DNA of 64,000 bases, from assembly GCA_034422835.1 (NCBI GenBank), contig DAOUJJ010000013.1, positions 12,618-76,617 on the forward strand, in the 5' to 3' direction. Origin of the DNA: Dehalococcoidia bacterium (lineage in GTDB: Bacteria > Chloroflexota > Dehalococcoidia > UBA6926). Shown here piece by piece: positions 766 through 48,299 of this stretch (position 1 is the first letter of the stretch; every line of letters begins with the position of its first letter). Under the pieces are notes generated by a model. The model saw only the letters and a list, made by a program, of their open reading frames with translations, searched no databases and was not told the origin of the DNA. Position numbers and translations under genes: made by a program.

Positions 766-772
766 GCGGGCC

Positions 773-1357
773 TTGATGCACTCATACGACCTTGAGGGGC
801 GTGGACGGATATACGCGGGGCTGGCGATCCTCAGTGTGACGCTGGTGTGGCTGTTGGATTGGAGCTTGAACTTCACGGATGTTGACCCGCCATGGTGGTT
901 CAGCGCTCCCTCTGTTGCGGGCCTCTACACGATGCTCTACTGGGTATTCGACCGTCATGTTTGGCGGTGGAGGTTCCTACGCCGACTCGGCCTGCTATCG
1001 GTGCCTGACTTGAACGGCGCATGGACGGGTGAAATCGATTCCTCTTTCGGCGGGGAGGGCACGAACAGAGACATCAAGGTGAACATCAGGCAAAGGTGGG
1101 CGTCGATATTGATTACTCTCCAAGCCGGTGAGTCGATTTCGCGCAGCACAATGGCGGCCGTAGCGGCCCGGGACACGGACAGCCCCGAACTGACGTATAC
1201 ATACTTGAACGAACCCCATGGAAGGGCGGCTGACACCATGCAAATGCATCGGGGCACATGTACGCTCCGGCTGGCCGGCGACCGGCTTGAGGGCAACTAC
1301 TACACGGGCCGGGGCAGAGGCACGGTAGGAGAATTAAAGCTGAAGAGGAATGCGTGA
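773..1357 (+). CDS. CBASS effector, 2TM + beta-strand-rich C-terminal domain (Cap15 / S-2TMbeta-like)
   Basis: Two N-terminal hydrophobic helices (IYAGLAILSVTLVWLLDWSL; WWFSAPSVAGLYTMLYWVF) followed by a ~110-aa region of alternating beta-like pattern. It lies immediately after the SMODS gene on the same strand. Confidence 0.6.
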   Translation: MMHSYDLEGRGRIYAGLAILSVTLVWLLDWSLNFTDVDPPWWFSAPSVAGLYTMLYWVFDRHVWRWRFLRRLGLLSVPDLNGAWTGEIDSSFGGEGTNRDIKVNIRQRWASILITLQAGESISRSTMAAVAARDTDSPELTYTYLNEPHGRAADTMQMHRGTCTLRLAGDRLEGNYYTGRGRGTVGELKLKRNA

Positions 1358-1430: not shown

Positions 1431-4400
1431 ATGCAGATAGTTGAAGGCAACCTGGTCTACTCCGCGACGGATCTTGTCGCATTTCTTGAATGTGGACATC
1501 TTTCAAATCTGGAGCGGTCCGCAGCACTAGGTGCTCTCACCAAGCCTAACCAGATCGACCCCATACTCGATCGCATTGCCGAACGAGGAGAGCGCCACGA
1601 GAAACTCTTTTTGGAGTCGCTACACGCTGAGCCCGTCCAAATCTTAGAAGTTAGCTTGGATGAGACTCTCCCGAGTGGAAAGCGCCTGCTGAAAGGTTGT
1701 GACGACACCCTTGGTGCGATGCGTAGTGGTGTAGACACGATATATCAGGCTGTGCTCTTTGATGGCCGGCGTTTAGGTTATGCGGATTTCCTGAGGCGTG
1801 TTGAACGACCTAGCGACTTGGGACCATGGAGCTACGAAGTCTGGGATACGAAGCTCGCAAGGCACGCAAAGGCATCAGCCGTACTTCAGCTCTGCATGTA
1901 TTCCGAGATGCTAGGCGCGGTTCAAGGTGTGACGCCAGTTGAAATGCACTTGGCTCTCGGTGGGGCACAGCAGGAGAAGGTTTCCTTCCGGGTGGCCAAC
2001 TATGCCGCCTACTATAGGCTTGTGCGGAGAGATTTTGAGTCTAGCCTCGATCTGCCGCTAGCCAATCCATTGCAGACCACTCCTGAGCCAGTGGAGCACT
2101 GCGCTATGTGTCGGTGGAGTTCTCAATGTCAGGCTAAATGGCGTCAGGAAGACGACCTAACCCTCGTTGCAAATCTGTCATCTCGACAGCGCCGTCTACT
2201 TCGCGGTGCTGGAGTGAATACCCGCACGGGACTCGCAGAAGACCTGCCTCAGCGATTAGATGGTATGGGTGAAGAGGTACTAGGTAGGCTACATCTTCAG
2301 GCTAAGATCCAAGTTCGAGGTGAACGGGATGGTATGACCATATCGGAGCACATTGAACCACCGCGGGATCGCGATGGGGCATTGATCTCGAATCACGGAC
2401 TACTGATGCTCCCTGAGCCATCCACTGGTGACCTTTTCTTCGACATTGAGGGTGACCCATTCTTCAGTTCCAAAGATGTGGATGGGATCGATTACCTATT
2501 CGGAGTTATGGAGGTAATCGAGAAAGATTCATTTGACCATCCGGAATTCCACTCATTTTGGGCGATCGAAGATGAAACGGTAACCCAGCAAGGTGAGCGA
2601 AGGGCGTTTGAGACTCTTGTCGACTTCTTCATGGACCGTCTTGAGGCAGACCCAAAGCTGCACATCTATCATTACGCACCTTACGAACCGACCGCCATGA
2701 AGAGGCTCGCCGGTCGTTACGGAACTCGCGAGAACGAGATTGACCAGCTACTGCGCGGAGGAGTCTTCGTCGACCTGTATCGCGCCGTACGGCAAGGAAT
2801 TCGTGCCTCCGTTGAGAGTTACTCTCTCAAGCACTTAGAACCACTTTACAATTTCAGGCGAGAGATTGATCTCCGGGATGCTGGGACAAGCATTGTTGAG
2901 TTCGAAACGTGGCTTGAACTCGGTGATGGAGAACAGCGAACAGAACTACTTGCGGACATCGAGAGCTATAACCGTGATGACTGTCTTTCGATCGTCTACT
3001 TGAGAAAGTGGCTTGAAGGTCAGCGTATCGAATTGGCCAACGAATTGGGGCACGCCCTTCCTAGACCAAGCGTAATTCAACCAGAAGAGAGGGAGGATAG
3101 TGAAACTCAAAATGAAGTTAGTCGAGTAGTATCTGCACTGATTGATGACTTGCCTGAATCGACCGACTCCATGACGGATGTCCAAAGAGGGCGATGGTTG
3201 TTAGCTCAACTGCTCAATTGGCACCGACGTGAGGACAGATCTCTCTGGTGGAGGTACTTTTATGTTGTCAAGGAGCTGACTGATGCTGAACGTCGAGAGG
3301 AACCAGACTGTTTAGGCGAGTTAACCTTCGATAAATCTTGGTCAGACCCCGCGCCAAATTCCCGGTCAAACATTTATCGCTTCAGTTTTCAGCCGCAGGA
3401 ACATGACATCCGGATCGGGATCAGGCCACTTGACCCTGAGATTGAAAAAACTGTTGGTGAAGTTGTAAGCCTGGACGATGAGCATGGCACCATTGATATC
3501 AAACGAGCCAAGTCACAGCCTGCCCCAACACCAACTTCATTAGTTCCGTTCGAGTATGTCAATCCTAGACCTAAGCCAGAGAGTTTGCTCAGTATAGCCA
3601 ACTGGGTGCTAACAAACGACATGAGTGCATCAGGAAGATTCCAGGTCGCCCGCGATTTATTGGCCAGAAGGCCTCCTCGTTTTGCGAGGCATGTTGAAGG
3701 AGAGCGCCTGCGCAAAGACACCGAGGACGCTCAGGACGCAGCACGACGGCTAGTCAAGGAATTGAATAGGAGTTACCTCGCGATCCAAGGCCCACCGGGT
3801 TCTGGCAAGAGCACGGTGGGAGCAACAATGATCGTCGATCTCCTAGAAGATGGTCAGCGCATAGGCGTTACAGCCAATAGCCACAAGGTCATTGGCGAGT
3901 TGCTCACGAAGGTTGCTAAGGAAGCCAAATCCCGGTCTCTCGCCACAAGAATCGGACAACGCTCGACCGATGCTCCAACATTCAGTGGCGCTATTCATCT
4001 CAGAAACAATGATGATGCACGAAATGCACTTGCTAACGGTGAAGCAAATGTCGTTGGTGGAACTTCTTGGCTCTGGTCGAGACAAGATATGGCAGACTCC
4101 ATCGATATCCTATTCGTCGACGAAGCTGGGCAAATGTCGCTAGCCGATGTGCTTGCAGCATCTCCTAGCGCAAAGAACGTTGTATTGCTCGGCGATCCGC
4201 AGCAGCTCGATCAGCCTTTACAGGGAACTCACCCACCGGGAGCGGAGGGGTCAGCCCTAGCGCATGTGCTCGACGGGGCTCAGGTGATGCCCGACGACCT
4301 CGGCCTATTCCTAGATGGAACTTGGCGGCTTCACCCACAAATCACAGCCTATACGTCCGAAGTGTTTTACGAAGGTCGTCTACATTCTCACGATGGGCGC

Positions 4401-4925
4401 GAACTGCTTGAACTGAAGGGTAAACCTCCACTGAATGGAACCGGCTTAAGATTCATCCCGGTGACCCATACAGCGCAATCAAGCGAGTCCATTGAAGAGG
4501 TGTCGCAAATATCTCAATTGCTCCGTCAGTTGCTGGAATCAAATGCAGCGTACCGAGATGCGAATGCAGCGACTCATCGCCTTGATAGCGATGGCGTGCT
4601 ATTGATTACGCCATACAACGATCAGGTTCGGGCTCTAAGCAAGGAACTGCCCAATTTCCGAATCGGGACTGTCGACAAATTTCAAGGGCAAGAGGCCCCG
4701 ATCTCAATTTACTCCATGGCAACGAGTTCCATAGATGAGGCACCCCGAGGCATGGAATTCCTCTACAGCCTTAATCGGCTGAACGTTGCAACTAGCCGGG
4801 CACAGTGCCTAGCTGTCGTCGTAGCCAGTCCTGAACTCTTGAGGGTACGCTGCCGCACTCCTCGCCAAATGCGCCTGGCAAATGCTCTCGCAATGTTTGT
4901 AGAGATGGCGGACAAGCAAGACTAG
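1431..4925 (+). CDS. Dna2/Nhi-like fusion: Cas4/AddB-type Fe-S PD-(D/E)xK nuclease + RNase-H-like (YprB/TM0106-type) exonuclease + SF1B (AAA_11/AAA_12, Upf1-like) helicase
   Basis: N-terminus: C21 plus C-x2-C-x5-C (EHCAMCRWSSQC), D...EVWDTK...QLCMY nuclease motifs, DIEGDPFF. C-terminus: Walker A GPPGSGKST, DEAGQ, LLGDPQQL, KFQGQE, NVATSRA helicase motifs. A/T-richer codon usage than the flanks. RBS TAGGAG precedes the ATG. Confidence 0.8.
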   Translation: MQIVEGNLVYSATDLVAFLECGHLSNLERSAALGALTKPNQIDPILDRIAERGERHEKLFLESLHAEPVQILEVSLDETLPSGKRLLKGCDDTLGAMRSGVDTIYQAVLFDGRRLGYADFLRRVERPSDLGPWSYEVWDTKLARHAKASAVLQLCMYSEMLGAVQGVTPVEMHLALGGAQQEKVSFRVANYAAYYRLVRRDFESSLDLPLANPLQTTPEPVEHCAMCRWSSQCQAKWRQEDDLTLVANLSSRQRRLLRGAGVNTRTGLAEDLPQRLDGMGEEVLGRLHLQAKIQVRGERDGMTISEHIEPPRDRDGALISNHGLLMLPEPSTGDLFFDIEGDPFFSSKDVDGIDYLFGVMEVIEKDSFDHPEFHSFWAIEDETVTQQGERRAFETLVDFFMDRLEADPKLHIYHYAPYEPTAMKRLAGRYGTRENEIDQLLRGGVFVDLYRAVRQGIRASVESYSLKHLEPLYNFRREIDLRDAGTSIVEFETWLELGDGEQRTELLADIESYNRDDCLSIVYLRKWLEGQRIELANELGHALPRPSVIQPEEREDSETQNEVSRVVSALIDDLPESTDSMTDVQRGRWLLAQLLNWHRREDRSLWWRYFYVVKELTDAERREEPDCLGELTFDKSWSDPAPNSRSNIYRFSFQPQEHDIRIGIRPLDPEIEKTVGEVVSLDDEHGTIDIKRAKSQPAPTPTSLVPFEYVNPRPKPESLLSIANWVLTNDMSASGRFQVARDLLARRPPRFARHVEGERLRKDTEDAQDAARRLVKELNRSYLAIQGPPGSGKSTVGATMIVDLLEDGQRIGVTANSHKVIGELLTKVAKEAKSRSLATRIGQRSTDAPTFSGAIHLRNNDDARNALANGEANVVGGTSWLWSRQDMADSIDILFVDEAGQMSLADVLAASPSAKNVVLLGDPQQLDQPLQGTHPPGAEGSALAHVLDGAQVMPDDLGLFLDGTWRLHPQITAYTSEVFYEGRLHSHDGRELLELKGKPPLNGTGLRFIPVTHTAQSSESIEEVSQISQLLRQLLESNAAYRDANAATHRLDSDGVLLITPYNDQVRALSKELPNFRIGTVDKFQGQEAPISIYSMATSSIDEAPRGMEFLYSLNRLNVATSRAQCLAVVVASPELLRVRCRTPRQMRLANALAMFVEMADKQD

Positions 4926-17419: not shown

Positions 17420-19138
17420 TTACTCTTCGCCGCTACAGAGCTTGATTGCCTCCCTATGGATTGCTTCGGCGCGAGCGTGTATGAATGATTCATAGTCGGA
17501 TTTGATCTTCGCACCCCGTGCCTCTTCATCAGCTATTTCTGAATACCCCCCAACGCTTAGACTGTCGAACGGTATGATGTGTGTTTCTAATCGGCTACGA
17601 ATTTGATCCTCACCAAGAGGTGCACGTTCGGCACGCTCCCGCAGATAGGCCAACGGCTCTTTGGCGGAAATTCTCCGGTTGGTGTTCCATGTGATTAGGG
17701 CACAATTCAGAGCGAGACTGATATCGCCCTCATCGATCAAACCCACATTGTCAAGTAGGGCTTCCGGGAATAGATGATGGTATTCCCTTCTAGCAAGCGA
17801 ATCAGGAGTGGCTGGCGAGTCATCGGCAAAATCTCTGCCTCCAGCTCGTATAGAGACAGCCAGTATCGCCCGAGCCAAGGTACTGCGGAGTCGTGGCCAT
17901 GGAGCCCGTTCCAGTTCCTCAATCTCGGCAATCGGGAATCTGTCGTTGTCCAGTATCGGAATCAAGGCATCAGATTCTCCATCTACAAGCCTGGCCTTTA
18001 GACCACGATGATCTTGGAGTGCAGCAGTAGCGGCCGCGCGGTCGTATCTGTCTGTAAAGAAGGAGCGCCACAAGTATTGACGCAATAGCAAACGCGCTTC
18101 GCCGTGAGCATCTAGGGATTGTGGCATCTGACTCCAGATTGAGGCGATTATCGGCACCACAGCTACCGTAGGCAGACGATCACGGTCGTAAATGTGTTCC
18201 TCACTCAGAAACCTGATCGCGCCCCCGACACCTCTTTCAATCGATTCCCATTCTCTGGAAAGCCGCCGCATGTCCAACTGTAAAAAGGAGGCTTCCGTGG
18301 GGGGCCGGTTTTCTCTGAGAGCAGCAACTCGGAGAACAAGATCCGAGATATTGACATATCGCTCGGCCTCTGGAACGGCTGAACGCAGAGACCCTTCAAG
18401 TTCGTGTAGGGATTGTCCTGTTGCCGCCTCCATTTGGGCTACGACAATATCAAATGCAGATAGGCGGACAGAAGTTGTATTCATCTTGATGAACACATCA
18501 ATTGCTTCTCCAGGAGGCGTGCCCACTGGCAATTCTAGGTAGGGTAGATTCGCCTCCCTAAGGGCGTTTCGGTGTATTGCCAATTCTCGTTCTAGGGAGC
18601 GACTTTCTTCGACAGAACCCGTAGCTAGGTCGCACCAAGTGCCAATTTCGGTAGAATCAACTGCCGGACTAAGAATACGTATTGGTACTAGTCCTCGTCT
18701 CCGCTGTTCCTGAGGCTGATCGGCCCACAGAGGGTACCTCTGGCCCCCTCTGTGCCACCTGCCATAACTTCTAACTAACGATGGATCGTCCGCATCAGGA
18801 CGTAGCACAGCGAAATAGGTTCGATTCGCGTAACCGTCGTTGAGTGCCTTCCATATCGCTGTCAATCGTTGTTGGCCGTCCAGCAGGTTCTCAGTTGTGC
18901 GTTCTGTTTGGGGAGGAGCCCCCGCTATAGTGCGGCTTATAAACGGCTGTTTATCTCCTATAGCAAGTACCAGGGCGGCACCGATTGGCCGACCACGCAG
19001 GATGGTGTCTAGGAGTGTTTCGACATCGCCATGTCCCCAACTTTCCAGCCTTTGAAACCTTGGGAGCGTTAGTTGTCCAGTTCGAACGCGCCCTAGCCAG
19101 TCGGGAAGTCGCCGATTTCTAGCTTCCATTGACATTGT
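17420..19138 (-). CDS. GmrSD-family type IV (modification-dependent) restriction endonuclease, DUF262 + DUF1524
   Basis: DUF262 motif DGQQRLTA. C-terminal His-Me/HNH-like DUF1524 motifs (EYHHLFP…HIIP). Start taken at MSMEARNRR, preceded on the mRNA by GGAAGC with ~6-nt spacing; it overlaps the thrS 3' end by ~20 nt. A/T-richer than the flanks. Confidence 0.75.
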   Translation of the reverse strand, partial: TMSMEARNRRLPDWLGRVRTGQLTLPRFQRLESWGHGDVETLLDTILRGRPIGAALVLAIGDKQPFISRTIAGAPPQTERTTENLLDGQQRLTAIWKALNDGYANRTYFAVLRPDADDPSLVRSYGRWHRGGQRYPLWADQPQEQRRRGLVPIRILSPAVDSTEIGTWCDLATGSVEESRSLERELAIHRNALREANLPYLELPVGTPPGEAIDVFIKMNTTSVRLSAFDIVVAQMEAATGQSLHELEGSLRSAVPEAERYVNISDLVLRVAALRENRPPTEASFLQLDMRRLSREWESIERGVGGAIRFLSEEHIYDRDRLPTVAVVPIIASIWSQMPQSLDAHGEARLLLRQYLWRSFFTDRYDRAAATAALQDHRGLKARLVDGESDALIPILDNDRFPIAEIEELERAPWPRLRSTLARAILAVSIRAGGRDFADDSPATPDSLARREYHHLFPEALLDNVGLIDEGDISLALNCALITWNTNRRISAKEPLAYLRERAERAPLGEDQIRSRLETHIIPFDSLSVGGYSEIADEEARGAKIKSDYESFIHARAEAIHREAIKLCSGEE

Positions 19139-20921
19139 CTGACCCCCTCCCCGCCATCTCCTCCAGCACCCGCTCCATGAACTCCCCAACGGGCATCGCG
19201 CCCAGATTCTCGCTGTTCTCACGGCGACGCACAGCCACCGCACCCGACTCCGCCTCGCGGTCGCCAACGACCAGCATGTAGGGCACGTGCCTGGTCTGCG
19301 CCTCACGGATCTTCGCGTTCATACGCTCATTGCGGTCATCAATCTCAACGCGCAGCCCGACGGCGTGCAGCTGCTCCTGCACCTGCTGCGCGTAAGGGAT
19401 ATGCCGGTCTGCAATAGGGATAAGCGTCGCCTGCACCGGCGCGAGCCACACCGGGAACGCCCCCGCGTTGTGCTCCAACAGCACACCCAAAAACCGCTCC
19501 AGCGAGCCGAGGATCGCGCGATGGATCAGCACTGGCCGCTCGCGCGTGTTGTCCTCCGTCACGTATTCAAGGTCGAACCGCTCCGGCAGATTGAAGTCCA
19601 GCTGGAACGTGCTCAACTGCCACTCCCGCCGCAGCGCGTCCTGCGAGAACAGGTCGATTTTCGGCCCGTAGAACGCGCCCTCATTGGGTATCTCCTCAAA
19701 GTCGACGTCGGCAAGCGTTAGCGCCTCGCGAAGCGCCTGCTCAGCCTGATCCCAGACCTCATCGCTCCCCACGCGTTTCTCCGGTCGCAGCGACAGCGTA
19801 TAACGCGGCTCGTTCAGACCGAATGCCTGGTACACGTCCCGCATCATGCGGATCAGCGACGAGAATTCGTCCTGTATTTGGTCGAGTCGGCAGAAGATGT
19901 GGGCGTCGTCCTGCGAGAAGCTCCGTACGCGCGTCAACCCGTGTGTGACGCCGGAGCGTTCATTGCGATGCAGCCGCCCAAAGTCCGCCATACGCAACGG
20001 CAGCGCGCGGTATGAGTGCAGCTGGGATTGGTACACGATGCAGTGGCCGGGGCAGTTCATCGGCTTGACCCCGTACTCGATCTCATCCGACTGCGTCAGG
20101 TACATATTCTCCAGGTAGTTGTCGTAATGCCCCGACTGTTTCCAGAGGTCCGTCAAGAATATCTGCGGCGTGATGACCTCTTGGTAGCCGTACTTGTCGT
20201 ACAACTCCCGGATGAAATCGACCATCAGGTTGTAGACCGTCGCGCCCTTTGGCAGGAAGAACGGGCTGGCTGGCGCGATCGGGTCGAAGAAGAACAGGTC
20301 AAGCTCGCGCCCTAGCCGGCGGTGGTCCCGCCGCTCCGCCTCCGCCAACCGCTCCAGGTGCGCGTCAAGCTCCTCTTGTGTTTCGAACAGCGCCCCGTAG
20401 ATGCGCTGCAGCTGCGGATTGCTCTCATCGCCGCGCCAATACGCTCCGGCCACCCGCGTCAGCGTGAACGCCCCCGTCTTGTCCGTCGACTCCGCGTGCG
20501 GCCCCTGGCACAGATCCGTGAACTCGCGATGACTGTAGATGGAAACCGTGTCGTCCGTCAGGCTCTCGATGATCTCCACCTTGAAAGGCTGATCCGCGAA
20601 CCGCGCAAGTCCCTCGTCGCGCGGCATCTCACTCGCGACGAACGGCGCAGCAGACTTGGCGCTCTCCCGCATCCGCGCCTCGATCTCCGGCAGATCGTCC
20701 GTGGATAGCGTGCGCGGCAGCAGGAAGTCGTAGTAGAAACCGTCCTCGATGGGCGGCCCGATGCCCAGCTTCGCCTCGGGGAACATGGACAGCACGGCCT
20801 CCGCCATCATGTGCGCCGCGGAATGCCGCATCCGGATGAGCGTGTCGTTCTCGCCTGCGTAGCGCTCCTCAAGCGCGCTTCCGTCCGCGAGTGATTCTGC
20901 TTCGTGTTCCTGGTGTGACAT
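19119..20921 (-). CDS. thrS: Threonyl-tRNA synthetase
   Basis: ThrRS editing and class II catalytic motifs (HRHSAAHM…, FRLHRNERSG…). Confidence 0.9.
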   Translation of the reverse strand: MSHQEHEAESLADGSALEERYAGENDTLIRMRHSAAHMMAEAVLSMFPEAKLGIGPPIEDGFYYDFLLPRTLSTDDLPEIEARMRESAKSAAPFVASEMPRDEGLARFADQPFKVEIIESLTDDTVSIYSHREFTDLCQGPHAESTDKTGAFTLTRVAGAYWRGDESNPQLQRIYGALFETQEELDAHLERLAEAERRDHRRLGRELDLFFFDPIAPASPFFLPKGATVYNLMVDFIRELYDKYGYQEVITPQIFLTDLWKQSGHYDNYLENMYLTQSDEIEYGVKPMNCPGHCIVYQSQLHSYRALPLRMADFGRLHRNERSGVTHGLTRVRSFSQDDAHIFCRLDQIQDEFSSLIRMMRDVYQAFGLNEPRYTLSLRPEKRVGSDEVWDQAEQALREALTLADVDFEEIPNEGAFYGPKIDLFSQDALRREWQLSTFQLDFNLPERFDLEYVTEDNTRERPVLIHRAILGSLERFLGVLLEHNAGAFPVWLAPVQATLIPIADRHIPYAQQVQEQLHAVGLRVEIDDRNERMNAKIREAQTRHVPYMLVVGDREAESGAVAVRRRENSENLGAMPVGEFMERVLEEMAGRGSDNVNGS

Positions 20922-39904: not shown

Positions 39905-40603
39905 CTAGCCGAGTATCTCTGCGATCCTCTCATCGAGGACCGTGCCGTTCACCACGCCTGCCCATCGCGTATGCACCGTGCCGTCCTGCTGGATGAAGAA
40001 CGTCACCGGCAGCCCGCCCACGCCGTAGTCGATGGTCGCCTCCCCGTCCGGGTCGGTCACCATGACGTAGCCATCGTCGACGGGAACGTTGAACTCCTCG
40101 ATGAAAGCGAGCGCGTCCTCATTCGTATCCTGGATCGCAACGCCGATGAACCGGACTCCCTGGTCCTTGTACCGCTCGTGAGCCTCGACCAGATGCGGCA
40201 TCTCAACGCGGCACGGAGCGCACCATGACGCCCAGAAATTCACCACGATTGGCGAGCCCTCGAAGTCGGACAAGCTCACGTCTCCCGCCCCGTTCAACTG
40301 AGAAAGAGTGAATGACGGCGCTGCGATGCTGGTGCGTGTCGTCGTATCCATCGGCATCGTCTCGCGCGTCAGCAGGCTGTACGCGAGGAGGCCAATGAAC
40401 GCCGCCATCACCACAACCGCCACACTGATGACGACAATCCCTGGGCGTTGCCGATTCTGAGGGCCCAGACGGGCGTCATGAACCGGCTCAGCGATGCTGT
40501 CAGTATCGCCATCGTCTGCCGCCCGTCCCTGTTCCGGCCCATCGCCGGACATATCGGGAGAATCTCTCTCGTCGGCGTCATCCATAAACCACATTCCCCG
40601 CAC
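39905..40603 (-). CDS. TlpA/ResA-like thiol:disulfide oxidoreductase (membrane anchored), Cys version
   Basis: NFWASWCAPCR redox motif and N-terminal TM. Paralogue of the Sec-containing redoxin at 11694..12371. Confidence 0.8.
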   Translation of the reverse strand: MRGMWFMDDADERDSPDMSGDGPEQGRAADDGDTDSIAEPVHDARLGPQNRQRPGIVVISVAVVVMAAFIGLLAYSLLTRETMPMDTTTRTSIAAPSFTLSQLNGAGDVSLSDFEGSPIVVNFWASWCAPCRVEMPHLVEAHERYKDQGVRFIGVAIQDTNEDALAFIEEFNVPVDDGYVMVTDPDGEATIDYGVGGLPVTFFIQQDGTVHTRWAGVVNGTVLDERIAEILG

Positions 40604-40674
40604 CTATGATTATACCTGCTTGTCTCTACAGGCCCTACGAACATTTGCCCGTTTTGTGCCATAGTGTAAGTGTC

Positions 40675-43512
40675 ATGTCGGGCCAGCAGCAGAGCGAACA
40701 GGAAACCACGCGCGAGGAGGTCTTTAATACTGACCTCGCGAACATGCTGCGGGACTTAAGCCTTCTTGATGCACGCCCTGAGCGAAGACGCGGACAGTCT
40801 GCACCGGATATTGCTGTTCACTTGCATGATGGCGAACGCATTATCGTGGAATGCAAGTGGGAATCCGCCGCAAGAGATTTGGATGATCAGCTTGCGCGTC
40901 GATTAGATAGCTTTCCAGAACTGCTGGCGGTGGTTGGCGTGCTGTATCCGGATCGTCTGCAATCAACCGCTGACGCGCGTGCTGATTTGGCGTCAGAAAG
41001 TGAATTGCGCTGGTTTCTGTACGGTTCTCGCGGAGTGGCAGTTGACGCGCGAACGACTTTTACGGGCTCAATAGAGGATCTGGGCAAGTACATAAGGACT
41101 CTACCACTTAGCCTCGAAGGAGCCGACCGAGTCGATGCTGCGGCAGGCTCAATCAGGTATGCAGTTGAGAGAGCATCGGGAATGGTTCATGACAGACACG
41201 CACGCATCGGGGAGCGAATTGCGGCAATCATCGCCGAGTCGGACAACGAAAAAGATCGGCTTGCCGCATTGAGAATCGGTTGCTTGGTGATATTCAATGC
41301 AATGGCCTTTCAAGATCGACTTTCCCCACGCAATAGCCAAGTGCCGACCCTACAAGAGGCCTTAGAGGGCGGAATTCAAGGGCTTGAGAACTCGTGGCGT
41401 ACAGTGCGAGAGTCCATCAACTATGTGCCGGTTTTTGAGTTGGCAGAGCAAGTCCTCGGTGTCTTGAGAACGGCCCCCACGGACCTCTGGCGTCCCGTAC
41501 TGCAATACCTTGCGGATGCAGTCGATGAAACTCGCAATCTCGAAGGACATGACCTCTCTGGCCGTCTCTTTCACACGCTCTTGAGTGAAGCCAAGTATAC
41601 CGGCGCGTACTACACTTCGGTCCCTGCTGCCACTATGCTGGCGCAGCTTGTCTTTGATGGTTGGCCGCCAAGAGTCGACTGGAAAGACCATGAATTCCCA
41701 GCTTCGCTTAGTGTCGCTGATATAGCCTGCGGCACCGGCACCCTGCTAATGGCCGTGGCGTCTGAGGCTCAAAGGAAACATGAGGAAGCCGGAGGCAATA
41801 GGATTGCTGAGCTTCACAAGGCAATGGTTGAGCAGGCGCTGCACGGCTATGACGTCCAGCTTTCTGCTATTCACTTTGCCGCAACAAGTCTTGCCATGCT
41901 GAACCCTGAAATCCAATTTGACCGTATGCGACTTTGGGTGATGCCTCACGGAGTCGAGGGGGATCGCGTTTCCCTTGGTTCCCTTGAATTCCTCGCATCG
42001 GAAGAGGCGGCTGTACAACATGCTTTGTCCCCTGAGAGCCTGGGTGTTGGTGAACGCGCGGCTGAGCGAGTATCGGGCGAAGGCCGGCGCAGTACCGAAG
42101 ATGGTGAGACTGCCCGATTACCGGACTTGGATCTAGCCATCATGAATCCCCCCTTCACTCGGTCAGTCGGAGGAAATCTATTGTTTGGCAGCCTACCTGC
42201 AAGCGAACGCCGCGCTATGCAGAGCGATCTTTCTCGCCGTCTGAGTTCACGTCTGGCGTCTGCAACCGCGGGGCTTGGTCCCGCTTTTGTCGCCACTGCT
42301 GCCCGTCGACTGCGTCTTGGCGAAGGGCGGCTCGCCCTGGTCCTGCCCTCAACTGTGGCTACCGGCCCATCATGGACGCAGACCCGCGCCTTGATTGAGC
42401 AAGATTTTCACTTGGATATGCTGATTACATCCCATGATCCGCAGCGATGGAACTTCTCTGATAGCACGGATCTGTCCGAGGCACTATTGATTGCGACACG
42501 ACGAGGTGAGGACGATAAGACTGAAGAATCGTCAACCCAATTCGTGAATCTTTGGCGCAATCCTGACAACGTGTTTGACGCGGAGAGAATGGCGCGTGCC
42601 ATATCAGTTGCTCAGCCCGCTGATTTGAATGGAACAGGAACGGCATTGCTCCGTTTGGACGGTAGGGACGTCGGCGAAGTCGTATCGGCGCCGCAAGCCT
42701 CTTTCGCACGGGACAAGTGGCCGGGTGGCCAGTTCGCGCGTGCCGACCTCACACGCAGTGCGATGCGCCTGCTCAGAAACAACGAAGCCTGGATGCCGGG
42801 CGGCGACTCAGCGCAACTCCCTATGTGCAGATTGGATGAGGTCGGACAACTTGGCCCGGATGTGCGTGATGTTCGCGACGGATTTGAATATACCGATGCC
42901 GTAACAGCATATCCGATGGTGTCTGGCCATCAGGCCCATCTACGAACCAGACTTGTCTGTGAGCCGGACCGGTACTTGGCCCCATTGGTCGCGGCCCGTG
43001 AAGGACGACGGCTGAAACCTCTCAACCTTTTGTGGCCACGGGCTGGCCAACTACTCTTGGCAGAGAGACTCTGGCTCAATACAACTCGCGTGGTGGGTAT
43101 GTACTGTACAGAGCGTGTTCTCTCTAATGTCTGGTGGCCTATACGAAATGGCGATTCACGACGGGATAGAGCACTTTGTGCCTACTTCAACAGCACTGTA
43201 GGAATCTTGGGTCTAATGGCAACGCGAAATACGACACGGGCAGGCTGGGTCAAACTCAAGAAAGCTGACCTTCAGCGCCTCCCTGTTCTGGATGTCCGCG
43301 CCCTCTCGGAAGAACAGCTTGACGCCCTCGCAGAGCTATTCGATGAAGTTTCGGAGATGGAGTTCATGCGCCTGCCTGAAATGGCTGATGACCCCGCGCG
43401 CAAGGCGCTTGATGACGGCCTCTCACGTATCCTCAACCTCCCTGACCTCGCCCCTCTCCGCCGCCTCATCGCCACTGAACCTGTCGTATCTAATCAGCGC
43501 CTAGGTTCGTAA
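40675..43512 (+). CDS. Single-chain type IIG/IIL-like restriction-modification enzyme (N-terminal PD-ExK-like nuclease + gamma-class N6-adenine MTase + TRD)
   Basis: PD-x15-ECK near the N-terminus. MTase motif X GAYYTS, motif I DIACGTGTLL, motif IV NPPF. ~300-aa C-terminal putative TRD. No partner genes adjacent. A/T-richer. Confidence 0.5.
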   Translation: MSGQQQSEQETTREEVFNTDLANMLRDLSLLDARPERRRGQSAPDIAVHLHDGERIIVECKWESAARDLDDQLARRLDSFPELLAVVGVLYPDRLQSTADARADLASESELRWFLYGSRGVAVDARTTFTGSIEDLGKYIRTLPLSLEGADRVDAAAGSIRYAVERASGMVHDRHARIGERIAAIIAESDNEKDRLAALRIGCLVIFNAMAFQDRLSPRNSQVPTLQEALEGGIQGLENSWRTVRESINYVPVFELAEQVLGVLRTAPTDLWRPVLQYLADAVDETRNLEGHDLSGRLFHTLLSEAKYTGAYYTSVPAATMLAQLVFDGWPPRVDWKDHEFPASLSVADIACGTGTLLMAVASEAQRKHEEAGGNRIAELHKAMVEQALHGYDVQLSAIHFAATSLAMLNPEIQFDRMRLWVMPHGVEGDRVSLGSLEFLASEEAAVQHALSPESLGVGERAAERVSGEGRRSTEDGETARLPDLDLAIMNPPFTRSVGGNLLFGSLPASERRAMQSDLSRRLSSRLASATAGLGPAFVATAARRLRLGEGRLALVLPSTVATGPSWTQTRALIEQDFHLDMLITSHDPQRWNFSDSTDLSEALLIATRRGEDDKTEESSTQFVNLWRNPDNVFDAERMARAISVAQPADLNGTGTALLRLDGRDVGEVVSAPQASFARDKWPGGQFARADLTRSAMRLLRNNEAWMPGGDSAQLPMCRLDEVGQLGPDVRDVRDGFEYTDAVTAYPMVSGHQAHLRTRLVCEPDRYLAPLVAAREGRRLKPLNLLWPRAGQLLLAERLWLNTTRVVGMYCTERVLSNVWWPIRNGDSRRDRALCAYFNSTVGILGLMATRNTTRAGWVKLKKADLQRLPVLDVRALSEEQLDALAELFDEVSEMEFMRLPEMADDPARKALDDGLSRILNLPDLAPLRRLIATEPVVSNQRLGS

Positions 43513-43633
43513 CAACTCCCCGCCCTTTACCCCGCACCTTTGCGGTGCCACAATATGGCATCTATCTATCGGGATGGCGGGCATCACGATGCCCCGCGCC
43601 TGATGACGAACAACGGAGGGGGGCCGTTACACC

Positions 43634-46248: not shown

Positions 46249-46263
46249 CGAGGACGGCCCGCT

Positions 46264-46498
46264 GTCATTCTGAGCGGAGCGCAGCGGAGTCGAAGAATCT
46301 AAAGCCTCAAATGCGCCGCCAAACCCCCTCCCCACCGTGAGGGAGGGCAAGGTGGGGGGCACATCCGCTCATCCTGAGCCTGTCGAATGACGTGAGCCCA
46401 TCCGTCATTCCCGCGAAAGCGGGAATCCAGAGCCGTCGATAGGGCGGACTCCTCATTAATTCCGAGTGAAGCGCAACAGGATTGAGGAATCTAAGCAC
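46264..46498. repeat. Largest palindromic repeat cluster (family 4 variant, CCCCTCCCCACCGTGAGGGAGGG palindrome, family 1, family 2 GTCATTCCCGCGAAAGCGGGAATCCAGAG, family 4/5 TTCCGAGTGAAGCGCAACAGGATTGAGGAATCTAAG)
   Basis: Five hairpin units within 235 bp, immediately after the CaiB stop. Confidence 0.8.
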
Positions 46499-46559
46499 TT
46501 AGTCTAACAGCCCACTTTCTTTATGGACGTGTTGCAACCTGCCCCTACCATCTTGCTTG

Positions 46560-46784
46560 TCATATCCCACGCTGTGGAAGACGGTCATCCGCTTGATCCG
46601 GAGCCTCATCTATGACCTTTAGGCTCCGTAGCATACTGTCCAAGTGCCTCTGCAAGGCCGGCCAATCCGTGTTCTCGTATCCTCGGAACTGGAGACTCGC
46701 CAGCTCATTCTTGACACCTCTAATGGCTGACTCCAAACGATTAACTCTGCCTTCCAATTCAATAATTCGCGCTTCGTCTTGCAT
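46560..46784 (-). CDS. Small coiled-coil hypothetical protein
   Basis: ARIIELEGRVNRLESAIRGVKNELASL heptads. A/T-richer islet. Confidence 0.3.
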   Translation of the reverse strand: MQDEARIIELEGRVNRLESAIRGVKNELASLQFRGYENTDWPALQRHLDSMLRSLKVIDEAPDQADDRLPQRGI

Positions 46785-46846
46785 TACATATCCTCCCTAA
46801 TCGACTGTATGAAGTACCAGATCTATTTGCATGCCCAATGTTGTTA

Positions 46847-47632
46847 TTAACCCCACCAATCAAAATCGCGCCGGGCGAACTCTTGAGATATGAGTAGATC
46901 TGGTTGCTCATAGAGCAGCGCGTCGATTTCTTCCCTCAGACTCCCGTGCATATATTCCCACATTACTGGAGATAACCGTCTCTCCAGACGCATGTGGAGT
47001 AGAAGTTCCACTTCATCGTTATTGGAATAGAAGCCGGCAAGGTCGATCGAACGCAGGCTATAGTTGTGGCGTTCTGCATAATCCAAGAGAGATTCGTTTG
47101 GCCTAATCCACTCTCCTACTTCAATCATCCGGTTAAAGATCCTCCAGAGGTACTCACCGTAATTCACATAACCGCCGACCGATTCCCCGTTGTATTCAAG
47201 AAAGTCTCGGAATGGCATTGTGTCATATTGCCCGGCGGCAGAAAGGCGGTAAGCAAAAAAGGCATCCCAGTACCCATCCTTGATGAGCGCCTGATACGGA
47301 CCAGTTTGGCTCGCCCACTGTTCACTAGTGGCGAGGTAGCCGTTCCACACTCGTTCGAGTTCATTTGGATCAAGGAAAGTTGGCCCGGGGATAGGGGTTG
47401 GAGTGTTTTGAGGCAATTGCGTGGGTAGGGGAGTTTGCGCTGCTATTGGAGTTGGTGACACGGGAAGTGGCGTAAGCGTTGGTGTTGCGGTTGGAGTTGC
47501 TGAAGGAACCGGCGTATAGACCGGTACGGTTGTGGCAGGCTCAGCAGATTGCGAGCCCCGTGAGCAACCAACAACCAGCGCCCCGGTACACAGGATCAGG
47601 ATGACCACTAGGGAGATAGCTAAAACACGCAC
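46847..47632 (-). CDS. Hypothetical lipoprotein with Pro/Thr-rich linker
   Basis: Signal peptide plus lipobox LVVGCS, PT-rich linker, ~170-aa C-terminal domain of unknown function. Confidence 0.5.
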   Translation of the reverse strand: MRVLAISLVVILILCTGALVVGCSRGSQSAEPATTVPVYTPVPSATPTATPTLTPLPVSPTPIAAQTPLPTQLPQNTPTPIPGPTFLDPNELERVWNGYLATSEQWASQTGPYQALIKDGYWDAFFAYRLSAAGQYDTMPFRDFLEYNGESVGGYVNYGEYLWRIFNRMIEVGEWIRPNESLLDYAERHNYSLRSIDLAGFYSNNDEVELLLHMRLERRLSPVMWEYMHGSLREEIDALLYEQPDLLISQEFARRDFDWWG

Positions 47633-47671
47633 GAGGGCATTCTAACAGCCCCTTTTCATCTTGAGGGGATG

Positions 47672-47713
47672 CCCCCCCTCACAGCTTGCTCGCCAGTTCC
47701 TCCATGTGGCCGG
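47672..47713. repeat. Direct repeat copy 1: duplicated phoU 3' end flanking the hicBA-like cassette
   Basis: CCCCCCCTCACAGCTTGCTCGCCAGTTCCTCCATGTGGCCGG is near-identical (1 indel, 1 mismatch) to 48325-48364. Confidence 0.75.
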
Positions 47714-47716
47714 CTC

Positions 47717-47989
47717 TTACTTGATGATCCCGCGCCCCCGCAGAATCTCCATATACCCGTCCCTATCCAGAGGGCAATTGACAGCGTCACGCAACTGTTG
47801 CTCAGTAAGCTTTAACTGCTGGCGGATTCGTTGATGGTGCGGCAAGTCACCACTGTCTTTGCGGGAGCGTTTGGAGCGTACGACTACTCGGCCACCGACG
47901 TAGAGTCGAGCCTTAACATGATCTCCGCCCCGAACCTCAAAGCCGAATTTCCGGACGACCTGGTCAAACTCACGCGCCGTCAGTGGCAT
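47717..47989 (-). CDS. HicA-like (YcfA/dsRBD-fold) toxin with C-terminal extension
   Basis: …VRKFGFEVRGGDHVKARLYVGGRVVVRSKRSRKDSGDLP…IRQQLKL resembles the HicA consensus. Overlaps the upstream HicB-like gene. Confidence 0.5.
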   Translation of the reverse strand: MPLTAREFDQVVRKFGFEVRGGDHVKARLYVGGRVVVRSKRSRKDSGDLPHHQRIRQQLKLTEQQLRDAVNCPLDRDGYMEILRGRGIIK

Positions 47990-48299
47990 CGACCTGACGG
48001 AGCTTTCCAATGAGAATATCGTAGATTGCTTGAAGCGCGGGCCCCAACCTGTCCCGGTCCTCGTGAAGATCACTAAAGAGTTCCACGATGGACTGCTGAA
48101 GGTCGCTTAGCGCCTCCTCCAGCGTGTCGCCTACTCCGTACTCCTCTAGCTCGGGCGCATCAGCTATGTATGTACCGTCCACGATTTCCCACGTCACCTT
48201 GATAGGCTCGACCACTCGTAGGCTGGCATCACCCAAGTCGCGAAGTTCAAGTGGTTGAGGAATCGTAGACGCAGGCGCGCTGAATCGCTGAGTGCTCAT
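47970..48299 (-). CDS. HicB-like antitoxin (UPF0150-type domain)
   Basis: …VTWEIVDGTYIADAPELEEYGVGDTLEEALSDLQQSIVE… typical of the HicB N-domain. Confidence 0.5.
   Translation of the reverse strand: MSTQRFSAPASTIPQPLELRDLGDASLRVVEPIKVTWEIVDGTYIADAPELEEYGVGDTLEEALSDLQQSIVELFSDLHEDRDRLGPALQAIYDILIGKLRQVDATDGA

What the first reader, a model, noticed from the sequence alone, without database searches (positions are those of the whole stretch)
40675..43512. Stand-alone ~945-aa PD-ExK + gamma-class N6-MTase + TRD protein (type IIG/IIL-like) with no partner genes
The N-terminal ~330 aa carry a PD…ECK nuclease-like signature. The centre has the motif order X (GAYYTS) - I (DIACGTGTLL) - IV (NPPF) typical of gamma-class adenine methyltransferases. 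The C-terminal third looks like a target-recognition domain. No separate methylase, specificity subunit or BREX/DISARM genes flank it; the neighbours are sortase/TlpA and CaiB. Composition is A/T-richer than the surroundings. MmeI-family enzymes protect the host by single-strand methylation, so a lone gene is plausible, but the N-terminal domain is divergent enough that a different effector logic cannot be excluded.
Basis: partly seen in the sequence, partly recalled or inferred. Interest (0 to 1): 0.55.

Follow-up and report, generated by a model that had tools for sequence, protein, structure and literature searches.

The report
Lone fused restriction-methylase gene
This gene encodes one large protein that most likely both marks the cell's own DNA by methylation and cuts unmarked foreign DNA; that is a known kind of defence enzyme, but this one belongs to a large, unstudied and poorly annotated family.

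Summary
Window 40675-43512 (+) is an intact 945-aa ORF with GC 0.56, against 0.62-0.65 in its housekeeping neighbours.

A confident AlphaFold model (pLDDT 88.7) and family alignments give five collinear parts:
- a PD-(D/E)xK nuclease (aa 1-132; E36, D45 and E59 invariant in 74 relatives down to about 20% identity);
- a helical arm (aa 133-305);
- a gamma-class N6-adenine DNA methyltransferase (aa 306-610; motifs X, I, II and IV invariant);
- a target-recognition domain (aa 611-873);
- a helical tail (aa 874-945).

The best full-length structural matches are the type IIG enzyme BpuSI, the type IIL enzyme DrdV, PglX and CamA. The domain order matches the published description of MmeI domain by domain. 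No partner gene is conserved in any locus examined.

Residues 701-880 behave as a swappable cassette between otherwise near-identical proteins, as a specificity module should. The nuclease domain is under purifying selection (dN/dS 0.09-0.31).

It is not an MmeI-family member by sequence: the Pfam MmeI N-terminal, helical, TRD and C-terminal models do not hit any of 50 diverse relatives. The family has about 920 clusters at 50% identity, and Pfam, NCBIfam and PADLOC recognise only its methyltransferase core.

Verdict: a new member of a known kind (lone type IIG, IIL-like R-M enzyme). Activity is inferred, not shown. Interest is moderate to low.

The parts
40675..43512 (+). Whole gene: 945-aa single-chain nuclease + methyltransferase + target-recognition protein. 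An in-frame ATG at 40606 would add 23 non-conserved residues.
   Evidence: ORF list and translation. Homologues start at the equivalent of 40675. AlphaFold model pLDDT 88.7, pTM 0.88.
40675..41070 (+). N-terminal PD-(D/E)xK nuclease domain, aa 1-132, with an alpha1-beta1-beta2-beta3-alpha2-beta4 core.
   Evidence: Secondary structure. The profile aligns D..ExK with AF1548 (1y88, E 0.005) and the Hjc resolvase ST1444. Weak Foldseek hits are all PD-(D/E)xK nucleases: Hjc, NucS/EndoMS, Cas4. dN/dS is 0.09-0.31.
40780..40857 (+). Predicted catalytic residues: E36 (end of beta1), P44-D45 (start of beta2) and E59-x-K61 (beta3).
   Evidence: E36 in 73/74, D45 in 74/74, E59 in 74/74 sequences. Position 61 is K in 42, E in 25 and R in 6. 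The placement is the same as that described for MmeI E51, D70 and E80-x-K82.
41071..41589 (+). All-helical arm, aa 133-305, linking the nuclease to the methyltransferase.
   Evidence: Helices 133-304 in both models. This corresponds to the helical region 151-300 of MmeI and the helical bundle of BpuSI.
41590..42504 (+). Gamma-class N6-adenine DNA methyltransferase domain, aa 306-610. Motif X is GAYYTS (41602-41619), motif I is DIACGTGTLL (41719-41748), motif II is GYD393 (41845-41853) and motif IV is NPPF (42145-42156). A disordered insert spans aa 450-476.
   Evidence: Invariant residues Y313, T314, D349, G353, G355, D393 and N491-P493. Pfam N6_Mtase, Eco57I and MmeI_Mtase hits in relatives. 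PDB profile hits. Coordinates.
42505..43293 (+). Target-recognition domain, aa 611-873. It ends at the conserved LPVLD motif (aa 869-873, nt 43279-43293).
   Evidence: The full-length model aligns over most of CamA (TM-score 0.69 normalised to CamA) and BseCI (0.63), both methyltransferase-plus-TRD proteins. LPVLD conservation is shown. The motif is analogous to the FPFP/PLPPL motifs that end the TRD in MmeI and HsdS.
42775..43314 (+). Exchangeable specificity block, aa 701-880.
   Evidence: P0061 and P0065 are 95-100% identical everywhere except aa 701-880, where they are 35-65% identical (Fisher p 5e-45). Two paralogues in one genome (L011, L014) are 100% identical in aa 101-400 and 46% in aa 751-800.
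43294..43509 (+). C-terminal helical tail, aa 874-945.
   Evidence: Helices 879-939. MmeI has a comparable C-terminal helical region of unknown function.
40586..40674 (.). Short divergent intergenic region between the redoxin gene (minus strand) and the target gene. A promoter here is presumed.
   Evidence: Gene calls on the source scaffold and the sequence. The consensus scan found no sigma-70 match here, so this is inference only.

Best explanation
The gene encodes a self-sufficient, single-polypeptide restriction-modification enzyme of the type IIG kind, organised like the MmeI/DrdV (type IIL) enzymes.

Proposed mechanism:
- The C-terminal target-recognition domain (aa 611-873) reads a short, probably asymmetric, DNA sequence.
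- The central gamma-class methyltransferase (aa 306-610) flips out an adenine in that site and methylates N6 with S-adenosylmethionine, marking host DNA as self.
- On unmethylated (foreign) sites, the N-terminal PD-(D/E)xK nuclease (aa 1-132; E36, D45, E59, K61), held on a helical arm (aa 133-305), cuts at a fixed distance to one side of the site. By analogy with MmeI, DrdV and BpuSI, this probably needs co-operation between enzyme molecules bound at more than one site.
- No second methyltransferase is present, so host protection most likely rests on this enzyme's own methylation, possibly of one strand only.

Shown here: the domain folds, the motif conservation, solitary gene status, purifying selection on every domain, and cassette-like exchange of the recognition block.

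Inferred: catalytic activity of both domains, the asymmetry of the site, single-strand methylation, the cutting distance and the multi-site requirement.
For: Architecture:
- The AlphaFold model is confident (pLDDT 88.7, pTM 0.88).
- The best Foldseek PDB match is the type IIG enzyme BpuSI (E 3e-18, aligned over the full length). CamA follows (TM-score 0.69 normalised to CamA), then PglX, then the type IIL enzyme DrdV (E 4e-12, about 1050 aligned columns), then M.BseCI.

Methyltransferase:
- Motifs X, I, II and IV are invariant in 64 relatives.
- Of 50 relatives, 41 hit Pfam N6_Mtase (best E 1e-13) and 24 hit Eco57I.

Nuclease:
- E36, D45 and E59 are invariant in 74 sequences down to about 20% identity.
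- The family profile aligns D..ExK with AF1548 and an Hjc resolvase.
- dN/dS is 0.09-0.31.
- One relative encodes the nuclease domain as a separate ORF overlapping the start of the methyltransferase-TRD gene, which links the two functionally.

Recognition domain:
- Residues 701-880 are exchanged between otherwise near-identical proteins.

Solitary status:
- No neighbour is conserved across the loci examined, and the window holds no other methyltransferase candidate.
- The same was reported for the MmeI family.
- The domain order and the placement of catalytic residues match the MmeI description point by point.

Weak support: one relative carries an N-terminal Xre-type HTH fusion (P0091) and another has an HTH_3 gene just upstream. 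Both recall the controller proteins of R-M systems.
Against: - No activity, recognition site or methylome is available.
- The target protein itself scores below the curated cut-offs of every library: Pfam N6_Mtase 14.7 bits against 20.4, and the best NCBIfam hit 24 bits against 720.
- The N-terminal domain has no significant Pfam match. Its Foldseek matches are weak (best E 0.056).
- Position 61 is Glu rather than Lys in about a third of the wider family. The window protein has Lys. To my knowledge BamHI is active with ExE at the equivalent position, so this substitution need not mean inactivity.
- The gene sits stably at the same chromosomal position in related genomes. That would also suit a domesticated, non-restricting methyltransferase.
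- Plasmid-borne relatives lie among genes typical of plasmid establishment regions, namely a zincin-like metallopeptidase-domain protein and a PRTRC cluster. My own reading is that the former resembles the anti-restriction protein ArdC. Protective orphan methyltransferases are common in such regions.
Confidence: 0.7

Rival explanations
1. It is a solitary (orphan) DNA adenine methyltransferase. On this reading the N-terminal PD-(D/E)xK domain no longer restricts foreign DNA. It would serve instead as a DNA-binding or regulatory module, or nick DNA for some other purpose. The protein would then act in epigenetic regulation, or on mobile elements protect incoming DNA from the recipient's restriction systems.
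For: - The chromosomal position is stable between related genomes whose flanking proteins are 98-99% identical.
- CamA, a solitary methyltransferase, is among the best structural matches for the methyltransferase-plus-TRD part.
- Plasmid relatives lie next to a zincin-like metallopeptidase-domain gene (ArdC-like, in my reading) and PRTRC genes.
- Lys61 is replaced by Glu in about a third of the family.
Against: - E36, D45 and E59 are invariant across the whole family, and the nuclease domain is under purifying selection.
- The recognition block and the nuclease-arm block are exchanged between alleles. That is the pattern expected of a defence gene in an arms race, not of a regulatory methyltransferase with a fixed motif.
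- CamA and BseCI have no nuclease domain.
Confidence: 0.17
2. It is the methyltransferase-plus-effector subunit of a multi-gene defence system (BREX PglX, MADS Mad2, DISARM DrmMI or a type I HsdM), and its partners are encoded elsewhere in the genome.
For: Weak partial matches to Mad2 (NCBIfam E 9e-6; PADLOC mad2 in 27 of 50 relatives), to PglX and to DrmMI models. PglX is among the top structural matches.
Against: - All these matches cover only the methyltransferase core and lie far below the cut-offs (24 bits against 720 for Mad2, 12 against 900 for BREX-5 PglX).
- No BREX, MADS, DISARM or hsdS/hsdR gene flanks the gene in the window or in any related locus examined.
- To my knowledge, PglX, Mad2 and HsdM do not carry an N-terminal PD-(D/E)xK nuclease.
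Confidence: 0.08
3. It is an RNA or protein methyltransferase, or another non-DNA enzyme, that merely shares the Rossmann fold and an NPPF-like motif.
For: Very weak hits to PrmC, UbiE and generic methyltransferase models (E 0.05-0.3).
Against: - Relatives hit the DNA-specific N6_Mtase, Eco57I and MmeI_Mtase models.
- Every significant profile match in the PDB (E below 1e-4) is a DNA adenine methyltransferase or R-M enzyme, as are all 50 listed Foldseek matches of the full-length model.
- The C-terminal half superposes on the DNA-recognition domains of CamA and BseCI.
Confidence: 0.02

Closest known systems
MmeI family / type IIL R-M enzymes (MmeI, DrdV)
   Same: - It is a single polypeptide of about 920-1030 aa with the same domain order: N-terminal PD-ExK nuclease, helical arm, gamma-class m6A methyltransferase, TRD ending in a short Pro-rich motif, then C-terminal helices.
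- A Glu sits at the end of beta1, an Asp at the start of beta2 and ExK in beta3.
- There is no nearby methyltransferase and no conserved neighbour.
- DrdV aligns over the full length in Foldseek (E 4e-12, TM-score about 0.45).
   Different: - No sequence membership: the Pfam MmeI_N, MmeI_hel, MmeI_TRD and MmeI_C models hit none of 50 relatives, and MmeI_Mtase hits only 10, weakly.
- The family profile finds DrdV in the PDB only at E 0.013, over the methyltransferase core.
- The nuclease domain starts about 25 residues closer to the N-terminus.
- The TRD ends in LPVLD rather than FPFP.
- Single-strand methylation and a 20/18 cut are untested.
RM.BpuSI (type IIG/IIS/IIC; PDB 3s1s)
   Same: It is the best Foldseek match (E 3e-18, aligned over the whole length). 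It has a PD-x15-ExK nuclease, a helical bundle connector, a TaqI-like m6A methyltransferase and a TRD resembling half an HsdS subunit. The target has PD-x13-ExK.
   Different: Only 12% identity, and a low global TM-score (0.35) because the domains are arranged differently. The BpuSI system was cloned together with two separate methyltransferases, M1 and M2. The target has none.
Eco57I-type type IIG enzymes
   Same: The Pfam Eco57I methyltransferase model hits 24 of 50 relatives (best E 3e-10). These are fused R-M polypeptides.
   Different: The target itself does not reach the Eco57I threshold. To my knowledge Eco57I has a companion methyltransferase.
BREX PglX (BrxX)
   Same: A gamma-class methyltransferase with a C-terminal recognition domain. 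It gives a strong structural match (E 3e-14) and a profile match over motif I.
   Different: PglX works only within a six-gene BREX operon and, to my knowledge, has no nuclease domain. No BREX genes are present here.
CamA, M.BseCI and M.TaqI (solitary or type II gamma-class m6A methyltransferases with a C-terminal TRD)
   Same: The methyltransferase-plus-TRD portion superposes on them (TM-scores of 0.69 and 0.63 normalised to CamA and BseCI).
   Different: They lack the N-terminal nuclease and the helical arm.
MADS Mad2 methyltransferase (NCBIfam NF047738)
   Same: It is the best NCBIfam hit (E 9e-6). The PADLOC mad2 model hits 27 of 50 relatives.
   Different: The match covers the methyltransferase core only, at 24 bits against a cut-off of 720. 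No other mad-like gene was seen next to the gene.

Membership tests
Type IIG restriction-modification enzymes (nuclease and methyltransferase in one polypeptide) | A PD-(D/E)xK (or other) endonuclease domain in the same chain as the methyltransferase | tested here: met
   The alpha-beta-beta-beta-alpha-beta core spans aa 14-91. E36, D45 and E59 are invariant and K61 is present. The profile aligns these residues with the D..ExK of AF1548 and Hjc. BpuSI aligns over the full length.
Type IIG restriction-modification enzymes (nuclease and methyltransferase in one polypeptide) | A gamma-class N6-adenine DNA methyltransferase domain with motif order X, I, II, IV and so on, followed by a TRD | tested here: met
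   The motifs lie at aa 310-315, 349-358, 391-393 and 491-494 and are invariant. Relatives hit N6_Mtase and Eco57I. The methyltransferase-plus-TRD part superposes on CamA and BseCI.
Type IIG restriction-modification enzymes (nuclease and methyltransferase in one polypeptide) | Demonstrated site-specific cleavage and methylation (AdoMet-stimulated) | not testable with these tools
   Needs biochemistry or methylome data.
MmeI family / type IIL | Sequence membership: matches to the Pfam models MmeI_N, MmeI_hel, MmeI_Mtase, MmeI_TRD and MmeI_C | tested here: not met
   The target has no hit. Among 50 relatives only MmeI_Mtase is hit (10 members, best E 3e-6). None hits the N-terminal, helical, TRD or C-terminal models.
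MmeI family / type IIL | A lone gene, with no separate methyltransferase and no conserved neighbour | tested here: met
   The window holds no other candidate methyltransferase. The neighbours are housekeeping genes. No neighbour is conserved across 18 genome loci or in distant loci.
MmeI family / type IIL | Methylation of only one strand of an asymmetric site, and cleavage about two helical turns away | not testable with these tools
   Needs SMRT or Nanopore methylome data and cleavage mapping.
BREX (PglX) | Co-located brxA, brxB, brxC, pglZ and brxL genes | tested here: not met
   None were seen in the gene calls within about 10 kb of the gene on either side, nor in the related loci examined. 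The BREX-5 PglX model scores 12 bits against a cut-off of 900.
MADS (Mad2) | A full-length match to NF047738, and neighbouring mad genes | tested here: not met
   The score is 24 bits against 720, over the methyltransferase core only. No conserved neighbours were found.
Type I R-M (HsdM) | Separate hsdS and hsdR genes, and an HsdM-type protein without its own TRD | tested here: not met
   There are no hsdS or hsdR neighbours. The protein carries its own C-terminal recognition domain.

The most novel reading that the evidence does not exclude
This may be the founding example of a large, overlooked family of lone R-M enzymes, distinct in sequence from MmeI. The family has about 920 clusters at 50% identity and occurs in bacteria, archaea and plasmids. 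In it, not only the recognition block (aa 701-880) but also the nuclease-plus-arm module (aa 15-288) behaves as an independently exchangeable cassette at a fixed chromosomal locus. Alleles would then differ both in what they recognise and in how or where they cut, or in which anti-restriction proteins they evade.
Probability: 0.3. Interest if true: 0.45.

Novelty: new member of a known kind. Interest (0 to 1): 0.3.

Why it matters
If the enzyme is active, the family is a large untapped source of fused restriction-methylation enzymes with new specificities. It has about 3,000 clusters at 50% identity at E up to 1e-3, and about 920 at 1e-30.

Natural cassette swaps of the recognition block between otherwise identical proteins offer ready-made pairs for learning which residues read which bases. 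That is the approach that made MmeI engineerable.

The family also shows a gap in annotation. Pfam, NCBIfam and PADLOC recognise only the methyltransferase core, so automated defence-system surveys will miss or mislabel these genes as plain 'N-6 DNA methylase' or 'hypothetical protein'. This includes surveys of the uncultured Dehalococcoidia in which the close relatives are very common.

It does not change what is known about how restriction works.

Tried and rejected
- Single-sequence searches of the target against Pfam, NCBIfam, PADLOC, PHROGs and the PDB gave only sub-threshold hits to the methyltransferase core. A profile of close relatives alone added nothing. Diverse relatives from the representative search were needed.
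- A Foldseek search with the N-terminal 300 aa alone gave no significant match (best E 0.056). The helical arm probably diluted the score. The nuclease-type hits are consistent with one another, but each is weak on its own.
- Pfam scans of 27 isolated N-terminal domains gave nothing significant.
- I looked for a conserved partner gene by clustering the neighbours in 20 loci and found none. The apparent recurrences are synteny of housekeeping genes within sub-clades.
- Relatives that seemed to have 'alternative' N-termini turned out, on reading them, to carry the same domain in more diverged form, with one possible exception, P0246.
- Consensus scans for a promoter or terminator around the gene found nothing above background.
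- Flanking repeats as a sign of insertion: a 10-mer flanks the gene here and in L004, but not in other contexts. I record it but do not rely on it.
- The paper on Aminobacter MSH1, which carries a plasmid-borne homologue, holds no methylome or restriction data.
Full report
**1. The observation**

The window holds one long ORF on the plus strand, 40606-43512, of 968 aa. Homologues begin at the position of the Met at 40675 (MSGQQQ...), which gives 945 aa.

- P44-D45 ... E59-C60-K61
- GAYYTS (aa 310-315)
- DIACGTGTLL (aa 349-358)
- NPPF (aa 491-494)

Gene GC is 0.56, against 0.60-0.65 for the flanking genes. Upstream on the opposite strand lie a redoxin/AhpC-TSA protein and a sortase. Downstream lie two CoA-transferase family III genes. 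The window is part of a 193-kb metagenome scaffold. The close relatives recovered from genomes are all Dehalococcoidia or Chloroflexi MAGs.

**2. What the single sequence does not show**

Alone, the protein is nearly invisible to curated libraries:
- Pfam N6_Mtase scores 14.7 bits, below the 20.4 cut-off.
- The best NCBIfam hit is the MADS Mad2 methyltransferase, at 24 bits against a cut-off of 720.
- PADLOC gives partial hits to type II, type I, mad2 and type IIG models over aa 288-410 only.
- There is no PDB sequence hit.

**3. The family**

The word-index search found more than 2,700 relatives. The top 120 are nearly all full-length (917-972 aa, plus one 1,096-aa HTH fusion) at 60-87% identity. 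Almost none carries a precomputed Pfam domain, and the only names given are 'hypothetical protein'.

The exhaustive search of 50%-identity representatives found 3,042 clusters at E up to 1e-3 and 921 at 1e-30. Many of these are full-length (about 950 aa) at 26-40% identity. They include Anaerolineae and DPANN archaea that NCBI names 'N-6 DNA methylase'.

Full-length relatives also sit on mobilizable plasmids of cultured Proteobacteria, Aminobacter sp. MSH1 pUSP4 and Sulfuricystis multivorans pSTJ1. Haloarchaeal viruses carry relatives of the methyltransferase core that their depositors annotated as 'type IIG'.

**4. The methyltransferase**

In 64 full-length relatives down to 26% identity, several residues are invariant: D293, G296, T314, D349, G353, G355, G391, D393 and N491-P492-P493. 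These cover motifs X, I, II and IV in the gamma-class order.

Of 50 diverse members, 41 hit Pfam N6_Mtase (best E 1e-13), 24 hit Eco57I and 10 hit MmeI_Mtase.

A family profile hits DNA adenine methyltransferases in the PDB: a type I HsdM, the type IIB enzyme BsaXI, PglX/BrxX, M.BseCI, BpuSI and DrdV.

**5. The nuclease**

E36 (73 of 74), D45 (74 of 74) and E59 (74 of 74) are conserved across the whole family. Position 61 is K in 42 sequences, E in 25 and R in 6; the window protein has K. One close relative has D at position 59, a conservative change.

In the models, the residues sit as follows:
- E36 at the C-terminal end of beta1
- D45 at the start of beta2
- E59-x-K61 in beta3

An N-terminal helix carrying the conserved REExxN precedes them, and alpha2 and beta4 (ending in the conserved Y91-P92) follow.

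That is the PD-(D/E)xK core. The placement is the same as that described for MmeI: E51 at the end of beta1, D70 at the start of beta2, and E80-x-K82 at the end of beta3.

A profile of the isolated domain aligns D..ExK with AF1548 (1y88, E 0.005) and with the Hjc-type resolvase ST1444. Foldseek with aa 1-300 gives only weak matches, but the nuclease-type ones all belong to this fold: Hjc (probability 0.99, E 0.056), NucS/EndoMS and Cas4-family proteins. No Pfam model covers the domain.

Nei-Gojobori dN/dS for the domain is 0.09-0.31 among related loci, so it is maintained by selection.

In one distant relative, the domain is a separate 189-aa ORF overlapping the start of a 767-aa methyltransferase-TRD gene. 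This may be a genuine split or an assembly frameshift. Either way, it ties the two parts together.

**6. The whole architecture**

The full-length AlphaFold model, built from 64 sequences, has pLDDT 88.7 and pTM 0.88. The only disordered stretch of any length is aa 450-476. The parts are:

| Residues | Part |
|---|---|
| 1-132 | nuclease |
| 133-305 | all-helical arm |
| 306-610 | methyltransferase |
| 611-873 | mixed alpha/beta domain |
| 874-945 | helical tail |

The best Foldseek PDB matches are:

| Match | Kind | Score |
|---|---|---|
| BpuSI | type IIG | E 3e-18, about 1,080 aligned columns |
| CamA | solitary methyltransferase | TM-score 0.69 normalised to CamA |
| PglX | BREX methyltransferase | E 3e-14 |
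| DrdV | type IIL | E 4e-12, about 1,050 aligned columns, TM-score about 0.45 |
| M.BseCI | type II methyltransferase | TM-score 0.63 normalised to BseCI |

BpuSI is described as a PD-x15-ExK nuclease, a helical bundle, a TaqI-like methyltransferase and a TRD resembling half an HsdS subunit.

The MmeI paper describes a nuclease, a helical arm (151-300), a methyltransferase (301-620), a TRD (621-820) ending in an FPFP motif reminiscent of the PLPPL motif of HsdS, and then conserved C-terminal helices. The target is collinear with this. Its conserved LPVLD motif (aa 869-873) sits where FPFP does.

**7. The C-terminal domain behaves as a specificity module**

Among 119 close relatives, 280 pairs are more than 93% identical in the methyltransferase. 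In some of these pairs, identity in aa 701-830 falls to 48-62%.

P0061 and P0065 are 95-100% identical in aa 601-700 and about 90-100% in aa 881-940. Across aa 701-880 they are only 35-65% identical: 84 of 181 positions mismatch inside the block, against 27 of 760 outside (p 5e-45).

Two paralogues in a single genome are 100% identical in aa 101-400 and 46% identical in aa 751-800.

Such block exchange is what is seen for recognition domains of R-M systems. It is hard to reconcile with a housekeeping or regulatory methyltransferase.

**8. Solitary status**

Clustering the neighbours in 20 loci found no universally conserved partner. Recurrent neighbours are housekeeping genes shared by sub-clades, such as Fe-S/CCG proteins, ABC transporters and enoyl-CoA hydratase.

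Distant members likewise sit between glutamate synthase and a TetR gene, or beside a serine recombinase.

No other ORF in the 64-kb window has a credible amino-methyltransferase motif IV.

The MmeI family was described in the same terms: no nearby methyltransferase and no conserved neighbour. BpuSI, by contrast, was cloned together with two separate methyltransferases.

Occasional HTH associations recall R-M controller proteins. These are a 1,096-aa relative with an N-terminal Xre-type HTH and an HTH_3 gene just upstream in L018.

**9. Mechanism proposed**

The TRD reads a short site. The methyltransferase methylates an adenine in it. On unmethylated DNA, the nuclease on its helical arm cuts at a fixed distance. 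With no second methyltransferase, self-protection must come from this enzyme's own methylation, possibly on one strand only as in type IIL enzymes.

The folds, conservation, selection, solitary status and modular exchange are shown. All enzymology is inferred.

**10. Membership**

The protein meets the structural definition of a type IIG enzyme.

It is not a sequence member of the MmeI family. The Pfam MmeI_N, MmeI_hel, MmeI_TRD and MmeI_C models hit none of 50 relatives.

It fails the BREX, MADS and type I tests, both for lack of partner genes and on score.

PADLOC models hit relatives only partially and inconsistently: MTase_I in 38, MTase_II in 33, mad2 in 27 and one IIG model in 16 of 50. 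Present defence-annotation pipelines would therefore not call this family reliably.

**11. Evolution at this locus**

Between the window and the syntenic MAG locus L004, the immediately flanking proteins are 98-99.8% identical, but this protein is only 85% identical.

The difference is concentrated in aa 15-288. There, identity is 59% at the protein level and 57% at the nucleotide level, and third-codon-position identity at conserved residues is 34%. In aa 316-945 the figures are 96% and 91% (p 7e-38). The nuclease-plus-arm module has therefore been replaced by recombination.

A third allele, L003, differs instead in aa 406-585.

Very uneven dS between regions in many pairs confirms pervasive mosaicism.

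**12. Verdict**

The object is a lone fused R-M enzyme with MmeI-like organisation, from a large uncharacterised family. It is a new member of a known kind. It is useful for enzyme discovery and for annotation, but it is not mechanistically surprising. I give it an interest of 0.3.

Noticed in passing
window 4-1357 (+): ORF 776-1357 encodes a Cap15-type CBASS effector (Cap15_TM plus Cap15_CD_rec, E 4e-33). The preceding 253-aa ORF (4-765) has no Pfam hit and may be the cyclase, possibly cut by the window edge. GC is 0.53-0.59.
   Followed up: partly
window 1431-4925 (+): A 1,164-aa protein combines an RNase_H_2 domain with an SF1 helicase (AAA_11/AAA_12). GC is 0.52, lower than the surroundings. 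It looks like a defence-island helicase-nuclease and lies directly after the Cap15 gene.
   Followed up: partly
window 17420-19306 (-): A 628-aa protein carries a GmrSD_N (DUF262) domain, typical of type IV modification-dependent restriction enzymes. GC is 0.54.
   Followed up: partly
window 46250-48100: This is a low-GC patch (0.50-0.55) holding ORFs of 261 aa and 118 aa with no Pfam match. The syntenic loci L003 and L004 carry different genes at this position, so it is a variable spot between the CoA-transferase genes and the phosphate-transport operon.
   Followed up: partly
window 40718-41537 versus L004: The nuclease-plus-helical-arm module of the target (aa 15-288) is only 59% identical in protein and 57% in nucleotide sequence to the allele in the syntenic MAG L004. 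The rest of the gene and the flanks are 91-94% identical at the nucleotide level. A recombination cassette has replaced the cutting module.
   Followed up: yes
window 40596-40605 and 43530-43539: The 10-mer CCCCGCACCT occurs only twice in the 64-kb window (0.25 expected by chance). One copy lies just upstream of the gene and the other 18 nt after its stop codon. The same pair flanks the gene in L004. It is degenerate in L003 and absent in the other genomic contexts. It may be a remnant of an insertion, or chance.
   Followed up: partly
L011 and L014 (both on OZ219765.1): One Dehalococcoidia genome carries two copies of a segment of at least 10 kb (90-95% nucleotide identity). Each holds a family member, a Replic_Relax/HTH protein upstream, and a reading frame for a roughly 1,900-aa DUF4011-SF1 helicase-MTES_1575 nuclease downstream (one ORF in L011, split in L014). 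The two family members differ mainly in aa 600-850.
   Followed up: partly
L021:4835-7679: This is a split version of the family. A 189-aa ORF encodes only the nuclease domain and overlaps by 29 nt the start of a 767-aa methyltransferase-TRD gene. It may be a natural two-gene form or an assembly frameshift.
   Followed up: partly
P0091; L018:9104-9936: One relative has a roughly 150-aa N-terminal Xre-type HTH fused to the enzyme. Another has DUF6932 and HTH_3 genes immediately upstream. These could be controller-protein-like regulation of the R-M gene.
   Followed up: no
L005-L008, L010 and L019, about 60-90 nt upstream of the gene: A conserved promoter-like sequence, CTTGAC-N18-TATCAT, lies upstream of the gene in one Dehalococcoidia sub-clade. 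It suggests the gene has its own promoter there. No equivalent is evident in the window.
   Followed up: no
L027 (Aminobacter pUSP4) and L028 (Sulfuricystis pSTJ1): Plasmid-borne family members lie next to a zincin-like metallopeptidase-domain protein (ArdC-like, in my reading), DUF5710 and DUF3560 genes. On pSTJ1 they lie next to a PRTRC cluster and a small separate N-6 DNA methylase. This is a context typical of plasmid establishment or anti-restriction regions.
   Followed up: partly
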